A stretch of 64,000 nucleotides of DNA from Eledone cirrhosa (lineage: Eukaryota): positions 255,006,001 to 255,070,000 of the forward strand of contig OZ024743.1 in NCBI GenBank assembly GCA_964016885.1, read 5' to 3'. Numbering within the stretch: the stretch's first letter is position 1; each line of letters begins with the position of its first letter. This document shows, piece after piece, positions 22,291 to 58,002 of this stretch. The notes beneath the pieces were generated by a model that did no database searches, was not told where the DNA came from, and saw only the letters and a list, made by a program, of their open reading frames with translations. Both the position numbers and the translations under genes were made by a program.

Positions 22291-23082
22291 ACAGGTAAAA
22301 GAGTAAAAGAGTAATATATATTCAGAGAGAGAGAGGGAGAGGAGTAATAATGAATACAAATCCCGAATTTCAGAGCGGACTTGATAAAATTATTATATGT
22401 ATATACATACATGTACATTTTCTCATAACCTTTTCGAGGCATTTATGTTTGAAATATCTCAGTTTCAGCAGATCCATATATGGTTGAAAGCAGAAATTGT
22501 TTGTTTAAACTTTTAATCTGTGTTAGTAATGTGTGTGTGTGTGTGTGTATACCCATGTCCCCCCCCCCCCCCCCCCCATATATATATATGCATATATGCA
22601 TAATGTATACATATGTGTGCAGCATCTGTTTTGCAAGTTCGGTAGTAAAGATAGTAAAAAAATGAGAAAACAGTAAAATGAATGTTATTACAGGTAACCA
22701 TTTAAATGTATAAATGGATAAAGCTGTGAACTCAATATTTTGGACATTAGACCTTCCTCAAAAAGAAATGAATAAAATAGGGAACAAGGAGGTGTGAGAA
22801 GTAAAAAAAGAAATAAGATAAAAGAGGAAATATAGTTAAATGAGTTAAAACAATGAAAAGGAACAATGGTGGATATGGAATAAAGAGGGAGAGAGGTAAA
22901 AGTGCAGGGGTTGGTGAATATATTTGTTTTCTGGGTTGGCACAAGGATGTGGCCTCTCTCTGTGTTTTATGTATGTGTGTATATATATATGTTAAGTATT
23001 TCCGTAGAAAAGGTAAATGAAGAAGAGTGCTCTATGTATAGAAAAGAGCTATTTAATTACATAATAATTAACACAATATGAT

Positions 23083-23144
23083 TATTTCATTACCAAAGGT
23101 TTCAGGAAACTAGAAAATCCTTACCTTGTTCATCAGATGAAATA
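23083..23144 (-). ncRNA. Type I hammerhead ribozyme motif
   Basis: Minus strand reads TATTTCAT CTGATGA [stem II region] GAAACC TTT GGTA ATGAAATA: 8-bp stem I, intact core, GUA cleavage triplet; stem II partly deleted compared with the 26773 copy. Confidence 0.65.
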
Positions 23145-23777
23145 GTTATGTTTGATATATACATTTTGAAATTAATATCTATTAAAAATTAAAGTGAGGC
23201 TAAATTAAAATAACATCTTATAATGGAAAATATATATATATATATGCATATGCACAGATGCTTAAATATACATACATGCACACACACATAAACTTGCATG
23301 TGTGCATCTATGCGAACATCCATATATACACTCTTACATAGATATATAAATGCACCAGTGATATATACACATTCATACACATCCACACACGCACATACAT
23401 AAAATGAAAGACAGTATTTGGCTAGACAATCACAACATATATTTATTCACACACAAATATATAAACAGACACATTTATACAAACATACATACGCATATAT
23501 AAACACATACATACATATATATATATAGACACTCATACATCCATATATATAAACAAGTACATATATGCACATACACACACATACATACATATACAATGTG
23601 GACATACACATATATATATACATATTAGGCAGACAGGCATGCATAATATATATTTATAAATACACACAAGCATACATACAACACATTTACACATGCTTAT
23701 ATATATATATATATACATGCATACACTTACATATATGTACACATACATTCACACACACACAGATATATATATATACA

Positions 23778-23829
<52 letters not shown>

Positions 23830-23836
23830 GTATACA

Positions 23837-24966
23837 TATTCAATAAACATATATGTATACAAAATATACATATATACATATAAAAAACAGTACATACAAA
23901 ATGATATATTCACATACATATAAATGCATATATATACACATACACATGTAAGTTTATACATATAAAAAATAGATATATTAGCACTCAAAAATATTCATAC
24001 ATATCTATGAATATGTTAAGTATAATTTGCAGCGAGGAGTTTTCGATGCTATAATTAGGGATGACATAAGATTGAATAAAAATCATATGTAAGTGTCATA
24101 AGTATCTGAAATTAGAGAAAATTTAAACAACGATATGACGCACATGTCACTTCTTTCAGATATCCTGAAAAAAGAAAGCCATGGCACTGGCAAACAGAGT
24201 GTAGGAGATGGAACAAAGTGGAATACCATATGAAATTAATTGGTCCATTTTAGACCAATAAAAAAAAATACACAAAAGGTACAAAAATATACTTTATGCA
24301 TAAGCGAGAAATATAGAATTCTACAAAACCTGAAATCTCCAAATACTTGTCTTGATTCCAAAACTGAATTTTTCAGCGATTGCCTGCATATAAGATCACA
24401 TCTGTTTTCCTGTTGGATTAAAGATAGCATCAATTTTGACACACAACCACCCTGAACATATATTTTATTTATGAAAAAACATTAACACTAACTATCCTAA
24501 ATGTATATTCAATATGACCACATACATTTAGTTATACCCATAACACACAAAATACACTCACATTGACTATGATTACATGCTTTTGTTATACCTATAACTC
24601 TCATATATTAATTATTTTCAAATCTTTATTTCACTATGTGTACTCTATAAGACGAATCAAACACTCCTTCATTCTAATGATATATTTGACACATATAATT
24701 TCACATATTTATAACACTTACATATGATTTTTATTCAATCTTACTTCATCCCTAATTATAGCATCGAAAACTCCTCTCTGCAAATTATACTTAACATATT
24801 CATAGATATGTATGAATATTTTTGAGTGCTAATATATTTAACTTTTCTATGTATGAACTTATGTGTGTATATATAGACTTTTATATGTATGTGAATATAT
24901 TTTTTTGTATGTACAGTTTTTTATATGTATATATGCATGTTTTGTATACATCTAAGTTTATTAAAT
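23837..24966 (+). mobile_element. 5'-truncated Penelope-like element with inverted terminal segment (GIY-YIG C-terminal remnant, possibly Naiad-type)
   Basis: Inverted arms 23837-24114 and 24696-24966; internal frameshifted FKQRYDAHVTSFRY...YEINWSIL...TLCISEKYRIL...LDSKTEFFSDCLH. Confidence 0.7.
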
Positions 24967-25487
24967 ACTAGCCAAATTACCCACGCCTTGCTGTGTTTCA
25001 CACATTTTTTTTTTTGTAAGAAAATGATGATTGATTTTAAATCAGTGATATAACTTATGGAGAAAAACTCTGTATTTCAATATTACTCAATGTAAAATGT
25101 AATGCATGAAAAACTGGAAAGCATTATTTTTTGTAATATATCAATTCAAAATTACATTATCAAATCTTATTCTTATTTTCTTTCTTGTAAATAATTCTTT
25201 TTAAAATATCAATTGAAAACTTTTTGAATAGGCATCATATCTTGTCATTTACCTATGGTTTAAATTTCATATAAATCGAAGGGAAAAACTTTCAACAGGG
25301 GTTTTAAGCGAGGGTTTGAGTCCCCAGAGAACACTTTGTTTAAAATAAAATATACTTATCCAAGTACCTGGGCAATGTAGTTTCAGAATACATATGGTAT
25401 GGGGGTCTATCTCCAAAAGCATAGGAGAAGATTGTGGACAAACAAACAAACAGACAGGAACTACAACTTTATATATATATATATATA
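24967..25487 (-). mobile_element. Non-autonomous Helitron (Lep1-like layout)
   Basis: Minus-strand 3' end with a short GC hairpin followed by CTAG|T (24967-24971); (CAAA)n/cagac tract and (TA)n at the 5' end. Confidence 0.6.
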
Positions 25488-26414
25488 CATTGAACTAAAA
25501 CCTGTTGAGAAAGTGGCTTCCTTGTTCAATCATCTTACCAGAAGCCTGACATTATTTATGTAAGCGGACAGTACTTGATTTAGGAGCCGCAGAAACCCAA
25601 ATACTGGATTTTACCAACCTTCCAGGGGTCCAGGTAAATTTTCAAATCCCGAATTACTTGATCGTTTTTTTGGCTATGCGAATGATTGTTTAACCATAGT
25701 CTCAGTGTGTTTGGCGTTTAACGTTTGTTATAGCTCTGGTTCATCTGAACCATTGAGCACTTGCCTCACATCTCAGAGGTTGTTTTTCGTTATTTCGTGG
25801 GCCGAAATGCGAATCTCGATAATTTATGTTTGTATTTATCTCCGGACTCTAGCTATTGACCAGTTAATTTTCTTGATTTTTTAGTTGATTCTATTGACTG
25901 ATGAATAGCTTATGTTAATTTTAATCCTTCTGTTGAGAACTCTATTCGATTTGTGATGCTTTTGCATTCTTGCAAAAATATACACAACTGAATTTATTCG
26001 CCTGATATAGGGGCTGCCTCCCTTGCTGATCCCCACGTGGAGTCAGCAACATAGTCAGTCCTTGTATTAACATTGAACTAAAACCTGTTGAGAAAGTGGC
26101 TTCCTTGTTCAATCATCTTACCAGAAGCCTAACATTATTTATGTAAGCGGACGGTACTTGATTTAGGAGCCGCAGAAACCCAATTACTGGATTTTACCAA
26201 CCTTCCAGTGGTCCGGGTAAATTTTCAATACCCGAATTACTTGATCGTTTTTTTTGGCTATGCGAATGATTGTTTAACCATCGTCTCAGTGTGTTTGGCG
26301 TTTAACGTTTGTTAAAGCTCTGGTTCATCTGAACCATTGAGCACTTGCCTCACAGCTAGGAGGTTGTTTTTCGTTATTTCGTGGGCCGAAATGCGAATCT
26401 CGATAATTTATGTT

Positions 26415-26419
<5 letters not shown>
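25487..26419. repeat. Tandem 1.6-mer of a 583-bp unit inserted in (TA)n
   Basis: 25487-25835 is repeated at 26070-26419 with few differences; 235-bp unique middle. Confidence 0.95.
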
Positions 26420-26464
<45 letters not shown>

Positions 26465-26484
26465 GATGTATATATATATATATA

Positions 26485-26554
<70 letters not shown>

Positions 26555-26885
26555 GATGTGTATGTGTATGTATATGTGGCTGATGTGCTTATATATCTAT
26601 ATAAGAGTGTATATGGATATACGCATAGATGTACGCATGCAAGTTTATGTGTGTGCATGTATGTATATTTAAGTGTGCATGATATTTTTTTCAATTATAA
26701 CATGTTATTTTAACTCAGCTTCACATTCAATTTTAATAGATATTAATTTCAAACTTATATCCAAAACATGACTATTTCATCTAATGAATGAGCTGGATGT
26801 TTCTGTAAGGATCATCTAGTTTCTTGAAACTTTTGGTAATAGAATAATTATATTGTGTTTTTTATTATGTAAGTAAATATATATA

Positions 26886-27032
26886 TATTTAATATAGAAA
26901 TGGCTTCTACGGGAAGCCCTGATGATTTCCACGAATGAAACAGTTCTAGTCATGTAGAAGCCTTTTCTATATTAAATATTTATACTCAGCTATGTATTGA
27001 GTACCTTACATATTGTAGTTACCCCCTTGTAC
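26886..27032 (+). mobile_element. Mini palindromic hammerhead-like element (family P), left arm partly deleted
   Basis: atatttaatatagaaatggcttctac...CTGATGA tttc cac gaat GAAAC agttctagtc...gtagaagccttttctatattaaatat plus the family tail. Confidence 0.8.
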
Positions 27033-27034
27033 AT

Positions 27035-27069
<35 letters not shown>

Positions 27070-27284
27070 GTTGAGGATGAATGAACAAAACACAGGAGGC
27101 AATTGTACACAGTTATATAAGGTGGCGGAAGTGGAGGTTTAAATGTGTTGGACATAAGTCCTTTATTAGGAAAGTGAGGATGGGTGGGGACAGGAACTCC
27201 AAGAAGGAGTAAGGAGGGCTTTAAGGAGGGAAGTTACAAAGTAAAAAATACAAAATTATGATAAAAAAAAAATATATATATACA

Positions 27285-27357
<73 letters not shown>

Positions 27358-27378
27358 CACTATTTAGCCTTAATAAAA

Positions 27379-27412
<34 letters not shown>

Positions 27413-27417
<5 letters not shown>

Positions 27418-28348
27418 TATGAAGAGAGAAGAAACATTTAGATATAATTAGTAATAAAATGTATCATACCTAATGTATTGTTTTTGTTTATGCCACGAAA
27501 CTACGTAGTCGAGGAATCTAGGAGCAGTTTAGGTATGATACATTTTATTACTAATTATATCTAAATGTTTCTTCTCTCTTCATAATGTATTTTTAACTCT
27601 GATACTGGTTCAGTCTAGTTCAACCGGATTGGTCTGTCCCAGTCATTCATTGAGCAACATCGGTGAAGTTGGCACCCTTAACTCACGGTTGGGTGCGGAT
27701 GCATTCATGTATATGTGTGTGTCCGCATGTATCTGTGTGTTTCTAAATATATTGTTAATAACTCCCTCTGGTCGAGCAATCTTTGAGGTGTGGGGACTGC
27801 TGGAAAGCTTCCATTACTCATATACTTCTCGCCTCCTTCACCACCTCTTCTACGGCTTCGATATAAATACCCCCTCCGCCTCCATGGTATTTTCTTCGGG
27901 GTTATAAGAGGCTTAGCTCTGTTTCTCGACCGTTATATCGCGTGACTATCTCTCCCTCCGCCTTTTGGGATTCTTTCTCACGTCGTGTAGACGCGTTCTT
28001 GAGATTAGTAAAATGAGGTATCCTCTTGATAAGTCGGCAGACCTCGCAAGGACTCTATATCTTTATGATGTATTGTTTTTGTTTATGCCACAAAACTACG
28101 TAGTCGAGGAATCTAGGAGCAGTTTAGGTATGATACATTTTATTACTAATTATATCTAAATGTTTCTTCTCTCTTCATAATGTATTTTTAACTCTGATAC
28201 TGGTTCAGTCTAGTTCAACCGGATTGGTCTGTCCCAGTCATTCATTGAGCAACATCGGTGAAGTTGGCACCCTTAACTCACGGTTGGGTGCGGATGCATT
28301 CATGTATATGTGTGTGTCCGCATGTATCTGTGTGTTTCTAAATATATT
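27413..28348 (+). mobile_element. Retrozyme/pLTR-like element: 60-bp inverted 5' piece plus 1.5 tandem copies of a 595-bp hammerhead-containing unit
   Basis: 27413-27472 is inverted relative to 27528-27590; 27473-27753 is repeated at 28068-28348; hammerhead TCCTC ttgataag...tgccac(g/a)AAAC TACGTA GTC GAGGA. Confidence 0.85.
28021..28110 (+). ncRNA. Type I hammerhead motif with a palindromic loop III (core partly decayed in this copy)
   Basis: Stem I TCCTC/GAGGA, stem II GGCA/TGCC, stem III AC-TACGTA-GT, GUC cleavage site; the first repeat copy keeps canonical CGAAAC (27496-27501). Confidence 0.6.
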
Positions 28349-28380
28349 ATTATTATATATATATATATATACATGCATAC

Positions 28381-28502
28381 ATTCCTTCGAATGAAACAGC
28401 TCTAGTTCTGTAGAATCCATTTCTATATTAAATATTGTATATATTCTACTATGTATTGAGTATCTCACAAACTGTGGTTACCCCTGATTGAACCTGGGAT
28501 AC
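28381..28502 (+). mobile_element. Family P right arm plus tail
   Basis: ttcgaatgaaacagctctagttctgtagaatccatttctatattaaatattg...cccctgattgaacctgggatac. Confidence 0.8.
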
Positions 28503-28523
28503 ACACACACACACATACACAGG

Positions 28524-28562
<39 letters not shown>

Positions 28563-29254: not shown

Positions 29255-29327
<73 letters not shown>

Positions 29328-32615: not shown

Positions 32616-34483
32616 AATACATATATTCATAGATAAATAGATAATTCATAAGCTACAAATGGTCATGATATCTAGAACCTTCAAAATCATAAATCATTCT
32701 GAAGATTCAAAGGACGAATGATTTCACAAGGTAGGATGATAATTTCCTTTTCTCTACACCCTCTCCGCCTGGAAATTGGCTGGTCAAAATATGCTCAAAA
32801 TTAAGAGAAAGAGACAATACATACATACATATATGAGACCACATGGTGTGATTTTAAATGAATATTTCACCTGTATCTATGGTGGTATCACAGGCATTAG
32901 ATTATACGTATAAACACATGTAATATAGAAGAATGGTATATGAGGGAGATGTGATTATAATTTCTTACAAAAGAAGCAACCATATAGAGGCTTGCTTGTT
33001 GGATGTGAATGAGTGGTGTAGCTTCTTGTATGTATTTGTTTGTCATGCAATGCATGTGTGTGTGTGTATGGGGTGGGGTGGGGGTGTCTACACATCTGAC
33101 AAACCATTGACAATTAGATTGTGAATGGCTTGTTTGAAATGGTGGTCAAATTTTGCATAATGAACTGTGCAAACACAGGAAATTGTGAAAGACCTTAGCT
33201 TTATGCATGTAAACATACATATTACCTTCATCATCATTAACATAAGTCGTCCATGCTAGAAAGGTTTGGATGGGTCCTCACAAACAATCAGTGCTCAAGA
33301 AGGGCTCCCTACTTTTCAGATGTGTTGTTCATTACTTCTCCTCGTTTTAGCTGAGGTTAGGTTTGTAACTTTGGTTACAACATTAAAAATTCATAGGAAA
33401 GGCTCACAAATCTTTTTCACAAACATCCTGTATATTATTGAATATACAATATGTACATGTGTGTGTAGAACACTTTGTTGGAGCAGCAATACAAATTTAT
33501 ATATATATATATATGTATACTCACATATCTGTATATACATATAACTATATATATATATGTATACACACCCTCACACATACAATATAAATCATTCTCTGAC
33601 TAATTTGTTTTCGTTTTGTGTACATTTTGCTACATCCCATTTCAAGGTATTGAACAGACAAAAGTGATTTCTATAAACATAATGCTTATTGCTAGCACAG
33701 ATCAATAATTATGATTTCTAACCTGAGCTATATAAATTAATGGAGCTAAACAGTGGTATATACATACAAGCATGCATCATACATACATACATATATATAT
33801 GTGTGTGTGTGTGTGAGTGTGGTATTTGATTTAACCTCCAAGTGGATTTAGCAATACAAATCTTTGTGTTAATCAATAAAACTGTTGAATAGACCAAATC
33901 TATAAGTTTCTATAGGCTTATTTTGTTGTAGATGCTGTTGTCATTATTGACGCCATGGTGATGGGGGTGGTAGAGATAGTGTTGTGGTAGAATAAGTTGC
34001 TGTCTGTACGTAGATATGTGTGTTGTTGACTTTTCTTATAATTCTACTTTTACATACTTACACATATTTACATATTGTTGTATGTATATATCTATGTGTA
34101 TGTATAAAAACGTTTAAATTAAGAAGCATTGGAAGAATTTTATATTTTAAATATTTGACTCACAACACCTATGATAATTTCTTAAACCCTTTGTTCACAC
34201 TTCTAGCAACAAAATAAGATTTTCTAAAACCATGGCAAGCAACTCATTAGTGTAATGGTTAATACATTAGTCTATATGGGAAATGCAGAATTCCATCCCT
34301 CACAGGCATTGCTGTCCATGATTTTCTGTCTCCAGTCCATTTGCTCTCAAACACAAATATTTCCAATGCTTCTTAAGTCAACCTCTTTGTTTATATATAT
34401 ATATATAAGGAAAAAAGATGGAATAGAAAATGCAACTGGAGTCTTTTAAAAAAAATATATATATTTATTTGGTTCCTATATAT

Positions 34484-34684
34484 AATATTTAATATAGAAA
34501 TGGCAAACAGGACTAGAACAGTTTCATTCAGAGGAAATCACCAGGAAAGCTTTCCTGATGATTTCCTTCGAATAAAGCAGTTCTAGTCCTGTAGAAGCCA
34601 TTTCTATATTAAATATTGTATACACTCTACTATGTATTGAGTACCTTACTTATTGTGGTTACCTCTGATTGAACCTGGGATACA
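34484..34684 (+). mobile_element. Family P palindromic element with opposed hammerhead-like cores and a 3' tail
   Basis: About 130-bp palindrome centred on caggaaagctttcctg; CTGATGA tttc cttc gaat on plus and CTGGTGA tttcc tct gaat GAAAC on minus. Confidence 0.85.
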
Positions 34685-34717
34685 CACACATATTTATATA
34701 TATATATATATAAATAT

Positions 34718-35056
34718 GGAGGCACATGGCTTAGTGGTTAGAGCATTGGCCTTGCAATCGAAAGGTTGTGAGTTCAATTCTCAGACTGGGTGATGTGTTG
34801 TTTCCTTGAGCAAGAGACTTTATTTCACATTGCTCCAGTTTACTCAGCTGTAGATATGAGATGATAGGGAATGGGGTCTCTATCATTCCAGTGCAAAGTG
34901 GTCGTGGAGGTGCCACGGCAAAAAAGCACCCAGCACTCACTGTAAATGAGGTTGGTGTTAGGAAGGGCATCCAGCTGTAGAAATCAAGCCAGAATCAGTT
35001 CCCGTCCCACCCTTGCAAGCAGGGAAAAGCGGACGTAAAATGAAATGATGATGATG
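34718..35056 (+). mobile_element. SINE family B, full length
   Basis: A box TGGCTTAGTGG, B box GAGTTCAATTC, CORE-like ccttgagcaagagactt, RTE-type tail and (ATG)n. Confidence 0.92.
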
Positions 35057-35291
35057 AAATGATATATTTATATATATATATTTTGTTTCTGAATTTGTTT
35101 AGCAAGATTCTTTATCTGAAAACGTGTGTTGAAACCGATATTGTTATACTTTGGGAGGGTCATGTTGCCAATAAGAAACACACGCACCAGTTGCTTTCAC
35201 TTCAATTTATTATAATAAATTTATAAATTTAGGAATTTATAAATTTCCGGTTGGTTGGTTGGTTCCACAACCGGATGATTGTTTATATATT

Positions 35292-35334
35292 GTCAAAGTT
35301 CTTTCGTCACACATTCTGTGACCTCTTCAGTGAC
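35292..35334 (-). ncRNA. Minimal type I hammerhead in the PLE pLTR
   Basis: Minus strand reads GTCA CTGAAGA G GTCACA gaatg TGTGAC GAAA G AA CTT TGAC: stem I GTCA/TGAC, 6-bp stem II, minimal stem III. Confidence 0.75.
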
Positions 35335-35533
35335 TGGGGATTATTTTTTTTGTTTTTGTGCCTCTCCTTTGTTCTGTCCTACACCATCTTGTTTTTGTGT
35401 GTGTTGTGTGCTTAGTTTGCGCATGTGTTACATCCGGGTGTCTGTGTGTGTTTATATTTGTTTATGTATTTGTTTATTTACATGTTACTGGTTGGTTGTT
35501 TGTTCTATGTGCGTGTGTGTTTTCATTTTGTCC

Positions 35534-37645
35534 TTAATTGTAAGTTGTGATGTTGCTGTTCCATTCATGTTTTCTACTTAATTTTAATTTTGGTTGGAGT
35601 TCATTTATGTTTATTGCCTCTGTGATTTGTCTAAACATTGCATCTTTTCTGTGTGTAGATTCTATTTTTATTTCTATGTTCTCTAATTTACCCTTATGTT
35701 CTATTTTAGCATGTTGGTAGAGTACAGATGATTCTTTACTATCTTGAAGGTCTCGCCAGTGTTCATTTATCCATTCTCCTATACTACGAGCTGTCTCACC
35801 TATGTACACTATATTCTCATCTCTACATTGTCCTTCAGTACATCTTATGCTATATACTACATTTCTAGTTTTACAGTTAATATGGGGGCTTAATTTACAG
35901 ATTATACATTTCTTGTCTATACAGGGAGGTCTTTGAAAAGGGTATGTATTGCTAATAAGTGTTTTTATGGAGGTACCTGGTCTTTCTACTATCTTAATAT
36001 TGAGTTTATGTTTATCTAGGGCCCTTCTAAATTTGTAAGCTAATTTACCTCTAGGGGTTGTATCGATGAACATTACACTCTGGTATTTATTGCTATCATA
36101 CCATGAGTTTATTCTATTAACCTTATTCCTAGTTCTTTCTATTCTATTCCAAAATTTGCTCCTATACAAGGGGCAAGTCCCATTTGTGTCATTATTTACC
36201 ATTTTTTCCCATTTGGTTCTGGCTCCTCTATATACTCTGATTTTATCTCTCTGATTGTAACCAGAGAACTGCATACGGTGGATGAAGTGTTGTATGTGTC
36301 TCTCTAGTACTTTGGGGTTGCACATGCGGGACACATTTCTCATCACCCGTACCAAATCCGCATTCAGTACGTTGATTTTGGTATGGTCTGAAACAGCTGA
36401 GTTTCGGTGGATCAGATATTTGGAAGTCATGGGTTTGGCATAATAGGAATGGAGGATTTTTGTTTTTAATGGTATCTAACCAGAGCTCTGTGTCTAGTAC
36501 AGGTAATCGATGGTTGGGGTGTTTGCTTGGGTAGTCTATAGTAACTCTAATACTCTGGTGGATGGAGTTAGCTATTTGCTGGATGCTTTCCATGGTGTTT
36601 TTCTCTAATTCCTGACTGTTCTCTAGTGGTAGTGTTTTTACTACGATGTTTATATCATCAACGTAGCGTGAGTACATTATCAGGGTTAAGGGGTCTTCTA
36701 ATTGTTCTTTAAGTTTAAGTTTAAGTCTATTGTCCCACCATACCATGAATAGGTTAGCTATGTCGCCTGCAATGCTAACACCAATGGCTGCTCCCTTCTC
36801 TTGGGCATATGATTTTCCATTAAATTTGAACATATGTTCCTTAAGGGTTAATTTTATGCTGGCCCCCACCGCATGTGCAATCATTTTCTTTAGTTCAACG
36901 TGGTTTTCGGGGGTCCGTATGGTTCTGGTCCACCTGTTCCATCTATCTGTGTGGGTTTTCTTGGCCATTGAGGTAATGGTAGGTGGTCTGCCTCTTGCTG
37001 GTCTTGTAGGGCATAGGTTGCTAAGGCCATATGTATCTAGATAATTATTACTATAGGTAAGTTTAAGTAGGAGTCCCAGTTCACTGGTATCAATCCCACG
37101 GAATTCAACATTGCTCTCACTGATCATTTCTACGCATTTCTCCACAGCAAAATCCACGTCAATAGATGGATACAGGGACACAACATCCATACTACCTATT
37201 ATGCAGTTTTTTAGGTCCCTATATCGGTTACTCTCGTCGATTCTGCTGAGGAGGTCCTCCGTGCTGTCATATATCTGGGGACATTTCAATGATGGGGTAT
37301 ATGATCAGGGAGAGGAAGTAGGAAAGTCTGTAGTTACTAGCAATATTAGCTCCACAGACTGGCCGTGTTGGTGGTCCTGTGATAGTGTCACTGCTCGTTT
37401 TATGGTCTTTTCGAAGCCCATACAACGCTGGCACGTCATTGTTCCAGGCCTGAAAGTTGTTGGCAGTCCTTTTGTTGGGCTGCATTATATTTGTCCACAT
37501 CATCATATGGGCATTGAGGGCTTTTTCCCTATCCTCATGCTCTTGTGGTGTTACTTCTCTTGTGTTAGTGATGTGGGGTTGCATTGCCTGGATGTAGTTT
37601 GACAGATTGTCAACCGACATTCTGCCAGATTTGTCTGTTGGAAAC
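35534..37645 (-). pseudogene. PLE reverse transcriptase plus GIY-YIG endonuclease, two frameshifts (about 37280 and 36430)
   Basis: PTDKSG, SMDVVSLYPSID, QEKGAAIG..IAGDIANLFM, RYVDDI, Cys linker CIDKKCIIC..NC, VVYSIRC...VYIGETAR, RQITEAINI. Confidence 0.92.
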
Positions 37646-37778
37646 ATGTAAATAAACAAATAAATAAACAAATATAAACACACACAGACACCCGAATGTA
37701 ACACATGCGCAAACTAAGCACACAACACACACAAAAACAAGATGGCGTAGGACAGAACAAAGGAGAGGCACAAAAAGA

Positions 37779-38038
37779 AGTGAGTGCTGTGTGCTTTTTT
37801 CTGTGGCGCCTCCACGTCCACTTTACAGTGTGGGCTAGGTGCTTTTTCTGCCGTGGCACATTCACGACCACTTTGCAGTGGAATGATAGGGATCCTAGTC
37901 CTATCATCTCATTTCTACAACTGAGTAAACTGCAGCAATGAAATAAAGTATCTTGCTCAAGGAAACAAAACATCACCCGGTCCGAGAATTGAACTCACGA
38001 CCTTTCGATTGCAAGCCTAATGCTCTAACCACTAAGCC
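37779..38038 (-). mobile_element. SINE family B, 3' part cut at the PLE junction
   Basis: Reverse complement of the tRNA head and CORE-like body. Confidence 0.88.
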
Positions 38039-38058
38039 TTCATATATATATATATATA

Positions 38059-40702
38059 TACGATATTAAATAAATGGAAACTATATTTATAAAACCATAT
38101 TTATTTCATTATATATATTTCAGGGATATCATATTAACAATATGCTATGCCTTCCTCAGACAAAATACAATATAAACAGTTTTATAGATTAATAGATTTG
38201 ACATACCGTACAACATCGACTTGTATTTGAAAAGTTGAATTGGCAGTGAAAAAATTGTAAACAGAAAGAAAGAAAGAAAAAGGAAAGAAAGACAGAAAAC
38301 GAAGAAAAAGAAGAAAAAGAAGAAATGCATGGAACAAAATAGAGAGATGGAAAGATAGATAAAGAGAAGAACTTCATGTAAAGAAACAGAGATATATATA
38401 TATATAGAGAGAGAGGAAATAGAGATAGATATATATATAGAAAACTAGGTAGTTGGACATCCGTTGAGTAAACGTATCAATGGTACATTTATTTATTTAT
38501 TTATTTATTTAGTTCTAGTATTAATGTAAGGGAGATATATATGGTTAGGAGAGAAACCAGCTGTTATATATAGAGAAAAATTAAAAGTAACCAGACATAG
38601 GCGAGGCATAAAAACTCTATGTTTTAGTGTAGAAGTATTACTATGTATAAAAAACCAGCCACTATATTGTAAATATCAGTATTCATGAATGAGACACGTA
38701 TCCATAATGTGTGAAAAGTAATGATCTTATGTTTAGTTTTAAAAAATTCATATGTTTATATGATAACTACAAATATCTATGTGAATTTACATGGTCAACT
38801 CTGCAAACCCTAGGTTCACACGGAAACCATTCTCATTGTGCTATAAAAAATTTAAGTATACATATATGTGTATATATATACACACATATATATAGAGTCT
38901 ATATTACTACTATTCTTGTCTTTACTCTACAAGATTATCTATCAAGCAGAAATAGAGAGCAGATTTCAATATTAATAAAAAAATATATATCAGAAACAAA
39001 AACCAAAAAATAACAATAATAATAATAATAAATAATAATAAAATAGAAAACTAAAAAATATTACGAAAAAATATTACATATTAAAAAATATTACATATTA
39101 AAATAAAAATATTAGAAAATACTACAATAATAAAAATAAACCACAAAGATCAACCCTTCAAAATTAATTGACAATATATTGCCAAGTTCATTATAAGCAT
39201 CAGAGTTGAAAACAGATAAAGCTAAACATTATTTATCAAATCGCATCTAGCAAAAATCATTTCAAAAAGTTTAGGATGCCCATTTGGTCTACATGTGTTC
39301 TTATATTTAATATAGAAGTTTATCTAGTGTAACGTTTATTCGAAATATTTGGAGCATCACCTTTTAGGGTAGTTTAATTTTTCATGAAGAATGTTTAAAT
39401 AAAAATAAAAATAAAAAGAAGAATAAAAAATGTTTAGAATAAATAATTTTTAGCTTTATCTGTTTTCGACTCTGATGCTTATAATGAACTTGGCAATATA
39501 TTGTCAATTAATTTTGAAGGGTTGATCTTTGTGGTTTATTTTTATTATTGTAGTATTTTCTAATATTTTTATTTTAATATGTAATATTTTTTTTAATATG
39601 TAATATGTTTTCGTAATATTTTTTTAGTTTTCTATTTTATTATTATTTATTATTATTATTATTGTTATTTTTTGGTTTTTGTTTCTGATATATATTTTTT
39701 TATTAATATTGAAATCTGCTCTCTATTTCTGCTTGATAGATAATCTTGTAGAGTAAAGACAAGAATAGTAGTAATATAGACTCTATATATATGTGTGTAT
39801 ATATATATACACATATATGTAAACTTAAATTTTTTATAGCACAATGAGAATGGTTTCCGTGTGAACCTAGGGTTTGCAGAGTTGACCATGTAAATTCACA
39901 TAGATGTTTGTAGTTATCATATAAACATATGAATTTTTTTAAACTAAACATAAGATCATTACTTTTCACACATTATGGATACGTGTCTCATTCAGGAATA
40001 CTGATATTTACAATATAGTGGCTGGTTTTTTATACATACTAATACTTCTACATTAAAACATAGGGTTTTTATGCCTCGCCTATGTCTGGTTACTTTTAAT
40101 TTTTCTCTCTATATAACAGCTGGTTTCTCTCCTAACCACATATATCTCCCTTACATTAATACTAGAGCTAAATAAATAAATAAATAAATAAATGTATCAT
40201 TGATACGTTTACTCAACGGACGTCCAACTACCTAGTTTTCTATATATATATCTATCTCTATTTCCTCTCTCTATATATATATCTCTCTCTGTTTCTTTAC
40301 ATGAAGTTCTTCTCTTTATCTATCTTTGCATCTCTCTATTTTGTTCCATGCATTTCTTCTTTTTCTTCTTTTTCTTCGTTTTCTGTCTTTCTTTCCTTTT
40401 TCTTTCTTTCTGTTTACAATTTTTTCACTGCCAATTCAACTTTTCAAATACAAGTCGATGTTGTACGGTATGTCAAATCTATTTATCTATAAAACTGTTT
40501 ATATTGTATTTTGTCTGAGGAAGGCATAGCATATTGTTAATATGATATCCCTGAAATATATATAATGAAATAAATATGGTTTTATAAATATAGTTTCCAT
40601 TTATTTAATATCGTAAATATACTCCAAATACTTGTCGAGTGCTTTTATATCAGTTATAAATATTTACTAGTTGTAACCCAACAATTTAAATATAACTTTC
40701 CA
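38059..40702 (+). mobile_element. Large non-coding foldback element: ~1.18-kb inverted arms, 200-bp spacer and 85-bp tail
   Basis: 38059-39236 is the near-identical reverse complement of 39439-40615 (mirror ORFs in the track); tail 40616-40702 also occurs at 392-475. Confidence 0.93.
40507..40572 (+). ncRNA. Type I hammerhead motif (mirror copy on the minus strand at 38102-38167)
   Basis: TATTTTGT CTGAGGA AGGcATAgCATAT tgtta ATATGaTATcCCT GAAA TATATA TA ATGAAATA: stem I, long stem II, palindromic stem/loop III, AUA site. Confidence 0.7.
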
Positions 40703-40721
40703 TATATATATATATATATAT

Positions 40722-40990
40722 TCAATTCTCAGACCGGGTGATGTGTTGTTTCCTTGAGCAAGACACTTTATTTCACATTGCTCCAGTTTACTCAGCTGTA
40801 GAAATGAGATGATAGGGACTGGCATCCATCTCATTCCACTGCAAAGTGGTCGTGGAGGTGCCACGGCAAAAAAGCACCCACCACTCACTGTAAATGAGGT
40901 TGGTGTTAGGAAGGGCATCCAGCTGTAGAAATTAAGCCAGAATCAGTTCCCATCCCACCCTTGCAAGCAGGGAAAAGCAGATGTAAAATT
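40722..40990 (+). mobile_element. SINE family B, 5'-truncated
   Basis: Matches 34775-35040. Confidence 0.9.
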
Positions 40991-44310: not shown

Positions 44311-44353
44311 ATGTATGTATATATATATAAACCTGTAAGGAAGCTTATCTCTC

Positions 44354-44387
<34 letters not shown>

Positions 44388-44794
44388 ATATGAGTGATAA
44401 GCTTCCTTACAGGTTTTATCTACCAAAATCACTGATCACGTAACGTTTAATCATAGAAATACTCTTCTGAAGTGCTATGCAGTGGAATAAAACCCAAGAA
44501 CATGTGGTTGTGAAGTGAACTTCAAAATCACAGATATGGTTTTCTCGCACTCACTCTCTTTCTCTTTAACACTTGCTAACAGCGAAAAGGAATATCAAAT
44601 TATAAGGATCAAATATATATTCATCTTCATCAATTGTGTGCTTGCTTTTCATTCTGACAAATGTATATTGTTGCAAACTTATGTACACACATGTATTCAT
44701 GCAAGTGTATATATGTATATACATATCCATCTGTATAAACATATAGAGAAATACATTTACATTTATATATATACATATATGCTTGCATACATAT

Positions 44795-45324
44795 ATACAA
44801 TTTATGTTGGATGGCTTAACTAGTGGGTGTATTTGTTCATTCCAGTTAGCAAAAACACTCAACTTTATACAAATCATCCATGTAGATGTAGTATCTTGTG
44901 ATTGGTGCAGGAATTAAATACTTCAAAGGCAAAACGATGCTGAATTCCAGATATTCCTTTAATAATGCAAACATCACAATATGTATTTCTATGGCCTGCT
45001 TACATCATCAGATCATGACTTAGGATTAAGTAATTGCTTTCAGAATTACAGTGAACATAAACAGAACAGAATATAGTAGAACCGAGGTGGTTCATCATTG
45101 GAGTAACACTGAGTGGCAATACCATCTCCAAATCTACAATATTCTCTGTTTATTTTTGCCGTAATCCAGTAATTGATTACTTAATCTTTGCAATTTACAC
45201 CTGATGAAGTCACCAAAGTCTTATATTGTTATCTGATAATGTAAGCACGCCATAGTACTATGTATTGTGGTTATTGTATTATTAAAGGAATATTTGGAAA
45301 TCAGCCTCCTGTTGTCTTTGAAGT

Positions 45325-45325
<1 letters not shown>
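44795..45325 (-). mobile_element. Family Q pLTR-like element with a partial inverted copy
   Basis: Arms 44919-45079 and 45134-45325; tail 44795-44918 matches 57740-57890; CTGATGA...GAAATACATATT motif on the minus strand. Confidence 0.7.
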
Positions 45326-50062: not shown

Positions 50063-50114
50063 CCCACCATATATATATATATATTTATATATAGATATAC
50101 TTATATATATATAT

Positions 50115-50282
50115 ATATTTAATACAGAAGTGGCTTCGAGAGGACTAGAACTGTTTCATTCAGGAGAAATCATCAGGAAGCTCTGATGATTTCTCTCGAA
50201 TGAAACATTTCTATATTAAATACACTGCTATGTATTGAGTACCTTACTTACTGTGGTTACCCCTGATTGAACCCGGAATAAA
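50115..50282 (+). mobile_element. Family P palindromic element
   Basis: ggactagaactgtttcattcaggagaaatcatcag gaagct ctgatgatttctctcgaatgaaac plus tail; intact CTGATGA...GAAAC on both strands. Confidence 0.85.
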
Positions 50283-51319
50283 CATATATATATATATATA
50301 TATAAATGCATATCTATATATAAAAAATTGTATATATGTATAAAAGTATATATAGAATAAATTTGAACAAAGTCAAGTGTGTAGATTCCTAGTAAAGCAA
50401 TATAAAATATGAAAACTTCACCAACCTAATTGTAGTTTCTTGGTTCCTGAAACTGCAATAAAAGAGACAAAATGAAGACTAGGAATCTCCCTTTTTGTGA
50501 CTTTGTATTATAAATGAATATGCTTCCCAGAAATAGATATATTTTAGCAATATTGAAATGAGATGTTCTGTATATTGGTGACATATATATATATATATAT
50601 ACACGTATATATATATAGTTCAAGGAAACAACAAATCAGAGGTACAAAAAGTCTTATTAGTTTCAGGCTTTATATATGTATATATGTTTGTGTTTGCATA
50701 TGTATGTATACATATACATGCATATATATATATATAGAACAAATTGAAAAAATGTGCTGCTATATATGAAGTCGAAATATCTAAAATAGATTTGGGGGTG
50801 GTGTAATAAAAATATATCTCTACTAGAGATTGAAAAACATGGTTATGAAGAACATTGAACTTTGTAATCATATTCATTGAAATTCACACATATATTTGAA
50901 AACTATTTATATATGATAGATAGATAGATAGATAGATATATGTATTCCTGAATGAATAATAATAATATTATATTATCAATATCCAGTTCCTTTTCAAGTA
51001 AACGCCCTCATAACACCATATGTCTTTTTTCGATGACTGATGTCATTCTTTTGTACCAGAGAGAAAGTAGTTGATAATTGTTCTGACTATGTATCTCTTG
51101 TCGCTGCTACTTACTGGAAATGTTGAGAATACATAGTATTATCAAAAGTATACATGAGCCGATTGGGCTAATTTGTGTACAGAGCGATTTTAATGCCGGC
51201 CTTCCTGAAAATCAAAAACAAAATTTGTTTTTGCTCTAGCATGGTGGATTCAGACTTAATAAGGGATGGCCGCAACTAGGTTTAAAATATTTAATGTATG
51301 CCATATGTCACCCTATGAT

Positions 51320-52700: not shown

Positions 52701-53015
52701 CATCTTCAAAAGCTTTTTGATTAAGATGGTCATAGGTCTCTTAGCTCGATGATGAGAGAGCTCAGCTGGAATCTGAGAGATACGAAGTCCGATTACTTTT
52801 TCCATCTCTATGGGTCTTTACCCATTTTGTATCAGATATTTTATACCAAATGACTGTAATTTTAAATACTTTCAGCACCTGAGAATCTAACACTGATCAA
52901 TCCTTCCATCCTCTTCTATTCAAAACCTTGTCTTCAGCAGCTGGACTAAAGTGTCATATAAGATGAACTGAGAAGACTGTTGGATGATATACGATGGGTG
53001 AGTCCATCATATATG

Positions 53016-53087
<72 letters not shown>

Positions 53088-53335
53088 CAGATGTGTATAG
53101 ATAGATATACATATATATAGATATGTGTATGTGGGTAATGTACGTATATATGTGAGGTTACATAGCTATATGTGTTTTTTAATGATAAAATTGCAAGGTG
53201 TTGCCATGTTGTTTTCTTAAGGAAATCGTTCTTCATAGGAATTCCTGCAAACTATTAAACATGTAACTGCCAGTCTCGCAGTCCTCTTAAATGTTATATT
53301 ATATTACATTTTTTATATCATGATGATGATTTATC

Positions 53336-53340
<5 letters not shown>

Positions 53341-53426
<86 letters not shown>

Positions 53427-53457
53427 ATCTATCTATCTATCTATGTATATATATATT

Positions 53458-53512
<55 letters not shown>

Positions 53513-53515
53513 GTA

Positions 53516-53554
<39 letters not shown>

Positions 53555-53876
53555 ATATATATGTATGTTTGTATATATATATATATATGTATGTATGTAT
53601 ATATATATATATATATATCACTCGTTAAGCGCATCGGTAGGAGTTCTCCTACATGGATATAAAGTTGTGGTCGTACTCTAAAACGAGTTGGCAGCCACCA
53701 TATATATATATATGTATGTGTATATATATATGTATATATATATATGTATATATATTTATGTATATATATATATGTATATATATATATATGTATGTATGTG
53801 TATATATATATATGTATGTGTATATATATATGTATGTATATATATATGTATGTATATATATACATATATATATATG

Positions 53877-53948
<72 letters not shown>

Positions 53949-53990
53949 TATATATATATGTATGTATATATATGTCTAAATATATATATC
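53341..53990. repeat. (CT)n followed by long (TA)n/(TATG)n microsatellites
   Basis: Directly visible. Confidence 0.97.
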
Positions 53991-54734
53991 CTCGCAACCT
54001 AAATGGTGCTGAAATATCTTTTATTTTTGTTTCCACAACCAACCATTGCCTTAAAAATATCGACTTTGAGAAAAGATAACAAAAAAATACAAAACACAGG
54101 CAGAATATTTGAAGGGATGGAGAGGCAGAGGATGAGAAGAGTAAAAATAATAAAACATTTTTTCTTCATTTTTACAACCTCTGGCTTCAAATTGAAAATA
54201 TATCACAAAAATGTAATCTGAGGGGAAAAAAAAAAAAAAAACTGAAATACAAAATATATGTTGAATTAAAAAGAAAATAGAATGATGGAGAAGGAAAGGA
54301 AGAATGTGAGAAAAATGCAAACATAATATGTACCATTAAATGGTGGTGGTGTTGCTGGGTGGTGGGTATTACAAGACAGGCAGTGATGGTTGGGGAGAAA
54401 ACCAGGAAGGCTATATCACTTATATTAAGATTTCAATAAGGACGTTGTTAAGTTTGTAGATAAACGAAATTGCTGATGTGACATTCTATATTACTGATTT
54501 TTCTTGCTTAATAGAACACCAGAATTTCTGTAATTACTTTTCATAAGCTATGTCCAGCATTTATCTGTCTGCTTGTATTTTAGATTTGTTTTTGTTGAAA
54601 AAGTAGATATATATAAAGACATACATATGTATGTGAATGTTTATGTGTATATACATGTATGATGCTGTCTATAATCTAAGGTCAAATCCTGTTGAGGTTC
54701 GCTTTGCTTTCCATCCTCATATATCTATGAACAC

Positions 54735-54962
54735 CCACCACAGCTGCTAATTCAGTCACCCAGCCCACATTGTGAAGTGGTTGTGTAGGCATCACAACAA
54801 AACACCCACTACCTAAAGGAGGTTGGCATTGGGAAGGGCATCCAGCTGTAGAAACAAAGCCAAAATAAGTCCTGTATGAACAAGACATGGTCACCAACCT
54901 TGCATTGCCCACAACAGGACAACCTGTCTAACAAATGCTAGTGTGGAAAATGGACAGAAATA

Positions 54963-55044
<82 letters not shown>

Positions 55045-55056
55045 ATTATCATCATA

Positions 55057-55093
<37 letters not shown>

Positions 55094-55293
55094 ATGTTAT
55101 GTTGGTACCACAAAACATCCAGCTCACACTGTAAATGTGGTTGGCGCTAGGAAGGGCATCTAGCCATAGAAAACCAACCAGAAACAGTCCTATATGAGCA
55201 AGACATAGTCATCCGACCCAACTTGCCTCTAAGTGGGACAAACCCGTCTAACCCATGCTAGCGTGGAAGATGTACATTAAACGATGATGATGA
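54735..55293 (+). mobile_element. Two RTE 3'UTR / SINE-tail fragments separated by (TA)n
   Basis: ggaagggcatccagctgtagaaa...aacccgtctaacccatgctagcgtggaa...gatgatg. Confidence 0.8.
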
Positions 55294-55817
55294 TTTCAAT
55301 GAAAACAGATGTTGGTTTCCTTATATTCCTTTTATGTTGAAAAATCACAATACATATTTCTATGAAATGCTTACATCATCAGATCAAGACTCAAAGCATT
55401 TGGTGATGTCATTGGGTGTAAATTGCAAATATTAAGTAATTAATTACTGGATTATGGCAAACATAAATGGAGAATAAAATTGGTATGCAGGTAGCCCACC
55501 AGTCAGTGTGACTGCTATGACAAATGGCGTTTGTATGCCACACACTCGAGAATACTATACATTGTGAGTTCTTAGGCACAACCAAGGGATGGGGTTATAG
55601 CCAGTGACAGAATTCTGTCATACACTGATATGTGATACTATCAATCAGAGCCAATGAATATGATCAGATGAACCAGCACTCTAGGCCGAGGTGACCTGCT
55701 CGAATAGATTCCGCATCACAGCTTCAACCTGATTGGGAATGGTTGCCAATGACCTGATGAATTATTGTGATACTATATGGACATTTTATACTTGTATCAT
55801 GATTTATACTTTAAAAT

Positions 55818-56020
55818 CAGTGGATTGGCAGTGTCGGACACCATGCTTCAGGGCATAGAGTTATGTCCCTTTACATTCTGAGTTAAAATTACCCCAGAGT
55901 TAGCTTTACCTCTCGTCCTTACGGGGTTGATGAAATAAAGTACAAGTCATGCAATGGTGTTGATTTAATCAACTTTCTCCTCCAAAATTGCTGGCCTTTT
56001 GCCTAAATCAGAAACCATTA
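55818..56020 (+). mobile_element. SINE family A
   Basis: Family consensus match, diverged. Confidence 0.8.
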
Positions 56021-56089
56021 TGATTTATAATTTAGGTATACTGTGTATTGTGTTATGGCATATAACTTATACTTTATATCTTTAATTAT

Positions 56090-56520
56090 ATTTTATTTCA
56101 TATTTTATATTATATTTCATATATAATTTGTAATTTTTTGATATTACGTCAGTCCATATGGACTCCGCATCAATACCTAATTAATTAGTTAATTTTTTCA
56201 ACTAATTCCCTACATTTATTACTTATTGTAATTATCTACTCTTTATAATTTATTTACTTTTTATAATTCATCAGTATTAGGATGTATACCATAGGTATTA
56301 TGTATTATGGTGTATTCTTTAGATTTCTATTTTTCTATATTTTATTTTTTATTTCATATCATATTTCATATGTAATTTGTAATATTTGATATTGCATGAC
56401 ACCTCTTGACCCCATAGCATCTACCAACTTATTTAATTAATTACTTTCAACTAATTACTTAATATTATAATTATAATTATCCACTCTTTGTAATTTATTC
56501 ACCTTTATAATTCACCAACT
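56090..56520. repeat. Diverged AT-rich tandem duplication (period about 250 bp)
   Basis: atatttcatatataatttgtaat...ttcaactaatt...aattatctactctttataatttatt occurs twice. Confidence 0.7.
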
Positions 56521-56860
56521 CAATATTTATGAGTCAATATAATCTATCATGCCATGAATGCTACTATTGCTTGCTCTTATCTGGTATGCATTACATCATG
56601 GACTGACTATCTAGCTGTCTTTAGGGTTACTTGTTGGGATGCCAGGATTTGGCTCTCTACCTAGCGTGCTTGAAATAAATGTGACATAATGTACAAGAAA
56701 GTTTTCATATATTGAATCCATTCGATTGTAAAAAACCTTCTGAAGCCTGGGGACTAGAGAATGATGGGGTCAGTCGCATTAATAAGGCCACATCATTGAA
56801 TTTTTTCGCAATATAAACTCATACTGTAAATAAGTTTGTCAACCAGTTACTACTCTTTAA

Positions 56861-57077
56861 CCCTTTAGCATTTAAACCAGCTGTATCTGTCAAGAATTCT
56901 CTCCACTCTTTATGTTCAAACCGGCTGTAACTGGCCACTCATACCGACTTTAAGGTTTTCAAAATAAATAATATCAGAAACCACATAGATTCGATATTCT
57001 GTGCGATAATTATGTGAGATAAAGCCTTTACCATGAAAATACTATAGTCTATAGAGAGTAATGTAAATTTTAAAGAG
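56861..57077. mobile_element. TTAA-flanked piggyBac-like MITE
   Basis: TTAA CCCTTTAGCATTTAAA ... gtaaattttaaagag TTAA. Confidence 0.65.
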
Positions 57078-58002
57078 TTAATTGATTATTTACTTTACAA
57101 ATACTTACTTACATTAGAATCATAATTATTCACTTTTCGTAACCTTATACTTTTTATACTTTTCAAAAGTCTTTACAACTTTTTACTTTTCTTGATTTGT
57201 GTAGCATTATAATTATTGACAATTATTTACCACCATTTATTCCTTGTATAATCTGAAAAAAATTATAACATTTTGCATTAGTAATATTCATTTCCTTTAA
57301 GAGTTTCACCATGATGCTAAGCTGGTTTTCGACCAGAGACTGCTATTACAGAAAATGATTCTGATTGATAGCATCACATATCGGTGCATGGTAGAATTCT
57401 GTTGCCACCAAACACAACCTCCTTTATCATGCCTATGAATCCACAATGCATAGCATTCTCTCGTGTTTGGCATACAGATTCTCTCGTATGTGGCATAGAG
57501 AGGCCGTTCCTTATTATAGTCACACTGACAAGCAGACTGCCTCCATATCAATTCTATTCTCTGTTTATAATTGCCATAATCCAGTAATTGGTTACTTAAT
57601 AATTTATGATTTACACCTGATGGCGTTGCCAAATGTCTTGCATCTTGATCTGATGATGTAAGCAAACCATAGAAATACGTATTGTGATTTTTGCAACATT
57701 AAAGGAGTACATGGAATCCGGCCTTCTGTTCTCATTAAAGCATTTAACTTCATTCCTGCACCACCCACAAGATCTAAAATGTTCGATGGATGATTCACAT
57801 AACGTTAAATGATTTTGTTTATTGCATTATGGTCTGATGATTGGAATGACCAGATTTACCTATTAGTTAAAACATCCAATATAAATGGCATATATATATA
57901 TACTACCCAACATGTGATGGACCTTGTAACAGCATTGAGTTCTTCGATTGGCACATTGCCTGTCACTGTAATTACACACACACACATATATATATATATA
58001 AT

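What the first reader, a model, noticed from the sequence alone, without database searches (positions are those of the whole stretch)
22990..57890. One architecture in at least six unrelated families: partial inverted copy + hammerhead + 3' tail, usually in (TA)n
Seen: the layout recurs at 22990-26880, 27413-28348, family P (26886, 34484, 50115), 35085-37776 (coding PLE), 38059-40702 and family Q (44795-45325, 55295-57890). The inverted copy stops short of a unique 3' tail in each case, and most carry a CUGANGA...GAAA core with a tiny, often palindromic stem III. Established: Penelope-like elements often have an inverted 5' pLTR piece and carry minimal type I hammerheads. Inference: this genome holds a diverse set of mostly non-coding, ribozyme-bearing foldback elements mobilised in trans by PLE enzymes and directed to TA microsatellites. 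Standard repeat libraries would probably leave most of them unclassified.
Basis: partly seen in the sequence, partly recalled or inferred. Interest (0 to 1): 0.75.

Follow-up and report, generated by a model that had tools for sequence, protein, structure and literature searches.

The report
Penelope retrotransposon ends in TA repeats
The fold-back repeats with hammerhead-ribozyme patterns are really there, but four of the six families are cut-short ends of protein-coding Penelope-like jumping genes, two are protein-less repeats that likely borrow those enzymes, and the layout is a known mark of this group.

Summary
The layout is real in all six families. The inverted arm has a fixed outer edge per family (D -81, B -162, P -71, C -56, A about -62, Q about -148), 3' ends abut (TA)n above a 9% background (weakly in A), and each family consensus holds one type I hammerhead pattern. 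Only four window copies keep it intact. The families are mostly not non-coding: A, D and P are ends of Hydra-clade Penelope-like elements whose longer copies carry RT-endonuclease ORFs, and C has a Neptune/Nematis-type linker. Only B (593-nt tandem unit) and probably Q (about 2 kb) lack an ORF. Inversion, tail, TA targeting, minimal hammerheads and non-autonomous forms are all published, and two reverse-transcription start sites explain the tail. Added here: 150-nt P copies begin 31 nt behind a TATA box, at hammerhead stem I, so they look like start-to-tail products of an uncut RNA. B is a retrozyme-like tandem with Penelope integration marks. A bulged hairpin follows most start sites. This scan found the same system on other DNA of this genome many times. 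Cleavage and expression are untested.

The parts
22990..24114 (-). Family A, tail-bearing arm (3' UTR of an old Hydra-type element); 3' end at 22990 next to (TA)5
23083..23144 (-). Family A hammerhead pattern, intact (core at 23136, predicted cut after 23091)
24110..26879 (+). Family A tail-less arm (24110-24967 and 26406-26879; outer edge -61), longer than the tail arm, with a relic of the endonuclease C-terminus at about 24110-24410; interrupted by insertions at 24968-26405
   Evidence: profile hit E 3.6e-6
27412..27473 (-). Family B tail-less inverted piece (-224..-162)
27473..28347 (+). Family B, 1.47 units of a 593-nt non-coding tandem repeat; TATA box at 27862; leader hairpin at 27761
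28020..28112 (+). Family B hammerhead pattern, U3-A8 variant with palindromic stem III; this copy has G12>A at 28092
26886..27045 (+). Family P copy with a very short inverted piece
28382..28511 (+). Family P copy, 5'-truncated, no inversion
34477..34693 (+). Family P copy: inverted arm 34477-34550 (outer edge -71) plus sense arm 34549-34693; bulged hairpin at 34624
50106..50290 (+). Family P copy: inverted arm 50106-50179 plus sense arm with an internal deletion
35082..37651 (-). Family C, 5'-truncated, frameshifted coding element (RT plus C-terminal GIY-YIG, CX4CxxC linker); intact hammerhead pattern with core at 35330
37643..37779 (+). Family C inverted piece (-405..-268), cut off at a SINE
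38053..39429 (-). Family D tail-less arm (-1517..-81), hammerhead core at 38159
39439..40702 (+). Family D tail-bearing arm (-1320..0), 3' UTR of a young Hydra element; hammerhead core at 40515, bulged hairpin at 40621
44796..45325 (-). Family Q short copy: tail arm 45018-44796 (-), tail-less arm 45140-45325 (+, outer edge -148)
55295..57890 (+). Family Q long copy: tail-less arm 55295-55650 (-), sense part to 57890 with nested repeats; hammerhead core at 57617 (mutated here)

Best explanation
The six families are ends of Penelope-like retrotransposons, four with protein-coding parent copies in this genome and two without a detected gene, and the layout likely arises because the element's enzyme nicks both strands of a (TA)n target and starts copying its RNA at either of two fixed sites. 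A copy begun at the outer site carries the tail, one begun at the inner site lacks it, and two such cDNAs joined head to head give the fold-back (inferred). Shown here: fixed edges, TA junctions, linked ORFs, and arms of D more alike than separate copies. When copying starts at the tail near the 5' end of the RNA it would run off at the transcription start and leave short promoter-less stubs (P about 150 nt, D about 275 nt; inferred). The stubs keep the whole hammerhead, so the template was likely uncut. B and probably Q are non-autonomous units that keep promoter or leader, hammerhead and both start sites, and likely use Hydra enzymes in trans.
For: ORFs: D 745/747 aa with RWR, DKT, YRDD, CxCX5C, CxxC, CxH. 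A: RT-EN upstream in longer copies and tail running into an ORF start in L034. P sister subfamily: leader-ORF-leader in L368 and L369. C ORF 1239 aa. Two independent starts: tail-less solo copies abut TA, and the tail-less arm reaches further 5' than the tail arm in 3 of 7 long D insertions and in window A. D arm-arm divergence is 0.04-1.6% against 0.6-3.1% to other copies, with 0-11 shared private alleles. P: exact TATAAATA 31 nt before stem I in 24 of 30 long copies, counted by eye; 40 of 57 arms or copies start within -6..+12 of stem I and 8 reach past the TATA box; 1 of 37 tail-bearing pieces starts at the predicted cut. D: 11 of 14 inverted arms of short copies stop at -270..-275. B: exact 593-nt period up to 2.8 units, no ORF match. 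Literature: a Poseidon protein cuts and extends both strands, starts at two internal sites that bound the tail, and does not need hammerhead cleavage in vitro (PMC11167929).
Against: No RNA, cleavage or protein test here. The transcription start of P is inferred from TATA spacing only; D has no TATA there, only an initiator-like motif. B's 5' ends are spread over -414..-501 (16 of 29, modulo the unit) and that sample was selected for length. In C the arms are barely more alike than separate copies (1.6-2.7% against 1.8-3.1%); in D, gene conversion between arms could give the same likeness. For main-subfamily P no copy with a full ORF was found, only the ORF start in L394. No enzyme donor was identified for B or Q. 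The in vitro work is on Poseidon, not Hydra.
Confidence: 0.82

Rival explanations
1. One reading: most families are independent non-coding ribozyme fold-back elements moved in trans.
For: Most individual copies are short and non-coding. B and Q show no ORF. Short P copies are abundant (28 aligned pieces in 10 of 60 random stretches) with a sharp 5' edge.
Against: A, C, D and P (sister subfamily) have coding parents. Short P copies lack the TATA box and the sequence behind the tail. The inner junction of the fold-back differs from copy to copy, so the fold-back is made at insertion and is not an inherited unit.
Confidence: 0.1
2. The inverted arm is made by snap-back: the tail-bearing cDNA folds on itself and is recopied, then the endonuclease trims at a fixed site (self-priming, as proposed in PMC3846280).
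For: D arms share private alleles. Many junctions are near-perfect palindromes.
Against: The tail-less arm holds sequence absent from the tail arm in 3 of 7 long D insertions and in window A. Solo tail-less copies exist.
Confidence: 0.2
3. B spreads through a self-cut circular RNA (retrozyme rolling model), which explains more-than-unit copies.
For: Exact 593-nt tandem period. The hammerhead pattern is kept in 27 of 29 copies. Circles are shown for other animal retrozymes (PMC7229834, passages).
Against: Read-through transcripts of tandem loci give the same copies. 5' ends cluster near the TATA box, not at the cut. B is longer than the 150-450 bp repeats described.
Confidence: 0.35
4. The fold-backs are MITE-like DNA transposons with terminal inverted repeats in TA sites.
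For: Inverted arms and TA flanks.
Against: Ends are asymmetric, 5' ends are variably truncated, many copies have no inversion, and long copies carry RT.
Confidence: 0.01

Closest known systems
Hydra clade of C-terminal EN+ Penelope-like elements, including Hydra-1_Obim (Craig et al. 2021, PMC8557442; section 11, passages and supplement rows read)
   Same: Single RT-EN ORF with RW(K/R), DKT, CxCX5C, CxxC and CxH; hammerhead near the 3' end; (TA)n insertion; inverted 5'-truncated copy and tail. The A-family RT resembles the printed Hydra-1_Obim protein by eye.
   Different: Tails here are 60-160 nt, against the 30-40 bp described. D is about 3.8 kb, longer than the 'generally <3 kb'. Non-coding units with Hydra-type signals were not seen in the parts read.
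Poseidon element PAc of Anolis, in vitro (Frangieh et al. 2024, PMC11167929; parts 1-2 of 4 read)
   Same: Two start sites bound the tail, both strands are cut and extended, the target is AT-rich, and uncut RNA serves as template.
   Different: Different clade. The start region there is an AC-rich stem-loop inside the ORF; here a bulged RCUC...GAGY hairpin follows the starts in the Hydra-type families and is absent from C.
Metazoan non-LTR retrozymes (Cervera and de la Pena 2020, PMC7229834, passages; Li et al., bioRxiv 10.64898/2026.07.22.740005, parts 1-3 of 5)
   Same: B is a non-coding tandem unit with one type I hammerhead per unit. A link to Penelope-like elements is already proposed from pLTR homology.
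   Different: B is 593 nt, has a U3-A8 core with a long loop II, and shows the fixed 3' end, fixed inverted edge and TA junction of Penelope-type integration. RNA circles are untested.
Minimal hammerheads of Penelope-like elements (Cervera and de la Pena 2014, PMC4209133; parts 1-2 of 4 read)
   Same: Short stem I, extra nucleotide before stem II (B, C), palindromic stem III, U3-A8 variant, pairs on opposite strands 100-700 bp apart.
   Different: A and D have A-U at the base of stem II, P has U.U (precedent: axolotl HHR_Amex2) and Q has C.A in the consensus.
Non-autonomous Chlamys elements such as MRC1 (PMC8557442, passage)
   Same: Non-coding Penelope-type units with pLTRs and head-to-tail multimers.
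   Different: [quoted passage not shown]

Membership tests
Hydra clade (family D) | Single ORF, RT followed by C-terminal GIY-YIG-type endonuclease | tested here: met
   745/747 aa ORFs with YRDD and a C-terminal VY..YVG region; Pfam gave no supporting hit
Hydra clade (family D) | RWK motif, DKT in place of DKG, CxCX5C linker, CxxC and CxH motifs | tested here: met
   RIRWR at 43 (R for K), DKT 126, CNCRDRSKC 604, CDLC 702, CKH 729 (features)
Hydra clade (families A, P) | Linked Hydra-type ORF | tested here: met
   A: decayed RT-EN at 25-45% identity to D in longer copies. P sister subfamily: ORF between two leaders. Main P: ORF start only.
Hydra clade | Hammerhead near the 3' end and insertion into (TA)n | tested here: met
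   A is weak on the strict TA test (6/27)
Hydra clade | Placement in the RT phylogeny with reference Hydra proteins | not tested
   Reference proteins were seen only as printed text; no tree was built
Neptune/Nematis (family C) | [quoted passage not shown] | tested here: met
   CIDKKCITC at 1113 and VYSIRCTEGQC..YIGET at 1135; the two clades were not told apart
Penelope-like insertion structure | 5' truncation, partial tandems, inverted 5' copy lacking a tail | tested here: met
Non-LTR retrozyme (family B) | Non-coding tandem repeats with a type I hammerhead in each unit | tested here: met
   593-nt period, up to 2.8 units, no ORF or profile hit, motif in 27 of 29 copies
Non-LTR retrozyme (family B) | Unit size of about 150-450 bp and canonical loop 1-loop 2 contacts | tested here: inconclusive
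   593 nt is above that range but within 51-972 bp of the 2026 preprint; tertiary contacts were not assessed
Non-LTR retrozyme (family B) | Self-cleavage and expression as circular RNA | not testable with these tools
   No RNA data were available to test it
DNA transposon with terminal inverted repeats | Symmetric terminal inverted repeats and fixed 5' end | tested here: not met

The most novel reading that the evidence does not exclude
Hydra-type elements carry a compact cis-code: TATA start at hammerhead stem I, an uncut hammerhead, then two bulged RCUC-stem-loop-UN-GAGY hairpins that set the two reverse-transcription start sites. Any RNA holding this code plus the second hairpin, such as the tandem retrozyme-like unit B, is copied by Hydra RT-endonuclease from a linear uncut transcript. 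That would name the enzyme and signal that move animal retrozymes, and make tens of thousands of 150-nt hammerhead stubs a start-to-tail by-product.
Probability: 0.4. Interest if true: 0.62.

Novelty: new member of a known kind. Interest (0 to 1): 0.36.

Why it matters
As an architecture it is known. Its value is as material. The genome holds roughly 140 hammerhead motifs per Mb above shuffle background (91 in 600 kb against 3-8; a rough extrapolation is about 400,000), and young families (D and B, about 99% alike) give exact start sites. The role of the hammerhead in these elements is called unclear in PMC8557442, and the enzyme that moves retrozymes is proposed but not shown (PMC7229834). 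The D protein with B and P RNAs would test both directly.

Tried and rejected
Rfam scan of the window: no hammerhead among the 150 rows shown of 228; the rows were microsatellite-driven miRNA matches and the tRNA head of a SINE. Pfam found only weak RT hits for C and nothing useful for full D and C ORFs. The strict CUGANGA scan missed A, B, P and C, so the descriptor was relaxed after I had seen the families; the shuffle counts use the relaxed form. My early reading of P as an independent SINE-like element was dropped once long copies with a promoter and an ORF turned up. The search for a coding parent of Q found none: shared sequence runs about 810 nt upstream and about 900 nt past the tail, the longest open stretch is 65 aa, and there is no Hydra profile hit while the A relic control hit. 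An extra G at P 5' ends (cap copying) could not be told from junction microhomology. No RNA holder listed for B. Runs X5 and X6 (organisms B, C) hold the B unit at low depth with too few differences to show covariation. The C arm analysis failed on a bad reference and was redone. Target-site duplications could not be read inside (TA)n. Paper searches for octopus + Penelope + hammerhead (3 listed) and Hydra + Penelope-like + pLTR + hairpin since 2021 (none) found no description of the hairpin or of these families; subscription papers and Repbase/Dfam were not searchable, and the preprint's supplements were not read.
Full report
Setting. The window lies in a 3.0-Gb animal genome rich in (TA)n, SINEs and RT fragments. 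That it is a cephalopod is my inference from the likeness to Hydra-1_Obim. I name the families A (22990-26880), B (27412-28347), C (35082-37779), D (38053-40702), P and Q. Positions with a minus sign count back from a family's 3' end.

The observation. All six show an inverted arm and a unique tail, and all are repeated genome-wide. I examined the 30 best loci of each search, and 60 evenly spaced 10-kb stretches as an unselected sample. The inverted arm has a fixed outer edge and a variable inner junction. In D the edge is -81 in 21 of 30 rows; of the rest, one is at -83, one at -199, four run out of the locus and three have no inversion. In B it is -162 in 13 of 17 inversions, and contigs of a public run break into TA at the same place. 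In P it is -70..-72 in 20 of 66 pieces, and in C -56/-57 in 6 of 19 random pieces. A (-61..-65) and Q (about -148) rest on fewer cases. 3' ends are followed by (TA)4 in D 29/29, C 28/29, B 23/28, Q 18/28, P 12/27 and A 6/27, against 9% background; window copies and duplicates were left out, and 0-2 loci per family did not reach the end. A tRNA-SINE (5' ends 5/10) and an RTE-type end (4/6) also touch TA, so TA contact alone is not diagnostic.

Hammerheads. With a relaxed descriptor (extra nucleotide, U3-A8 core, long stem II, one mismatch), five consensus sequences give one sense hit and no antisense hit, with 0-5 hits in 2000 shuffles. D fails there because its stem I has two G-U pairs, and passes when these are allowed. 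Copies keeping the motif: B 27/29, C 25/30, A 10/30, P 10/29, Q 8/30. In the window four true copies and one probable chance hit pass. The stems differ in sequence between families yet pair, which is covariation across families. The random sample holds 91 motifs against 3, 7 and 8 in block shuffles. No cleavage was tested.

What the families are. D copies extend to about 3.8 kb with an ORF of 745-747 aa bearing the Hydra motifs listed by Craig et al.; the window copy is its 1.5-kb 3' UTR. A's longer arm holds an endonuclease relic, longer copies carry decayed Hydra RT-EN, and one tail runs into an ORF start. P has longer copies with CCAAT and TATA motifs; a sister subfamily flanks a Hydra ORF on both sides in L368 and L369, and main P shows the same ORF start once (L394). 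C is coding, with a Neptune/Nematis-type linker. B is an exact 593-nt tandem with no ORF match. Q shares about 810 nt upstream and about 900 nt of read-through with no ORF or profile hit, and two loci tie that read-through to the interior of the window copy, which suggests a non-coding unit of about 2 kb. So four of six families have coding parents.

How it likely works. Frangieh et al. show for a Poseidon element that both target strands are cut and extended, that copying starts at two internal sites bounding the tail, and that hammerhead cleavage is not needed. The genome fits this. Tail-less solo copies abut TA. The tail-less arm reaches further 5' than the tail arm in 3 of 7 long D insertions and in window A, which simple snap-back cannot give. 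D arms are closer to each other than to other copies, pointing to one source per insertion or to later conversion; C arms show this only faintly. In P the TATA box lies 31 nt before stem I in both subfamilies; 40 of 57 arms or copies begin within -6..+12 of that point and 8 reach past the TATA box, while 1 of 37 tail-bearing pieces starts at the predicted cut. In D, 11 of 14 inverted arms of short copies stop at -270..-275. I infer that copying from the tail nearest the RNA's 5' end runs off at the transcription start, leaving promoter-less stubs that keep the whole hammerhead. For B the clustering near its TATA box is loose.

The hairpin. I had noted a CTC...GAGC motif behind the tails before reading earlier scan notes; those supplied the reading of a bulged twin hairpin marking start sites, which I then checked. 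A strict match lies within about 10 nt of the D inner, D outer, A inner, B outer and Q outer sites and the P inner site (window 34624). Near variants are seen by eye at B inner and Q inner. It lies about 50 nt away at A outer, and is absent at P outer and both C sites. Inner stems differ between families while staying paired. The random sample has 18 matches against 1-5 in shuffles, 5 of 18 with a hammerhead core upstream against 4.9% background. The record printed just before Hydra-1_Obim in the supplement (header not shown) ends in the same kind of hairpin. Its function is inferred.

Against what is known. Craig et al. 2021 (passages, section 11, supplement rows) describe the inverted 5' copy, the tail, (TA)n insertion and hammerheads of Hydra, and non-autonomous Chlamys forms. 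Arkhipova et al. 2013 (passages) describe inverted pLTRs with tail and mobilisation in trans. Cervera and de la Pena 2014 (parts 1-2) describe minimal, U3-A8 and opposite-strand hammerheads. The 2020 paper (passages) and the 2026 preprint (parts 1-3) tie tandem retrozymes to these elements. Goubert et al. 2022 was read in passages; other papers were seen only as search listings. Eight earlier notes on this genome report the same system; they are not independent support.

Verdict. The feature is real, the kind is known and the members are new. Interest 0.36.

Noticed in passing
window 25487-26423: Separate repeat with 354-nt direct repeats between TA runs, nested in A; weak Hydra-like peptide on the - strand; 95% copy in L278; no hammerhead hit with my descriptor.
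   Followed up: partly
window 357-475: Another D-family tail, starting just behind the predicted hammerhead cut, between TA runs.
   Followed up: partly
window 29635 and L302:455-3365: Decayed window copy of a hammerhead family that forms a 482-nt tandem of seven units in L302; L283 has a 311-nt tandem with another hammerhead. Both look like retrozyme arrays.
   Followed up: no
window 44329-44416: Near-perfect 30-bp inverted repeat around (TA)13, not one of the six families.
   Followed up: no
window 12497-12914, 34715-35062, 37779-38038, 40721-40989: tRNA-headed SINE whose 5' end often abuts (TA)n (5 of 10 in the random sample), at times directly behind a Penelope-type 3' end.
   Followed up: partly
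window 62778-63151: Weak Hydra-like protein fragments in both orientations.
   Followed up: no
L001 (G000:C4:366450323-366453473): A second place 111 Mb away holds the window's P copy at 100% with the same downstream SINE but a different upstream flank: local duplication or joint mobilisation.
   Followed up: no
L184:2625-6341: Full C ORF of 1239 aa with a long Asn/Thr/His-rich insert, recalling the N-rich inserts in rotifer Penelopes; 19,470 first-look candidates for its RT.
   Followed up: no
L186: A D insertion forming a 6-kb almost perfect palindrome, with 1 difference in 2795 compared sites.
   Followed up: partly
window 6353-9006: GC-richer LINE-type RT fragment on the - strand (Pfam RVT_1 E 9e-14), not part of the finding.
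   Followed up: no
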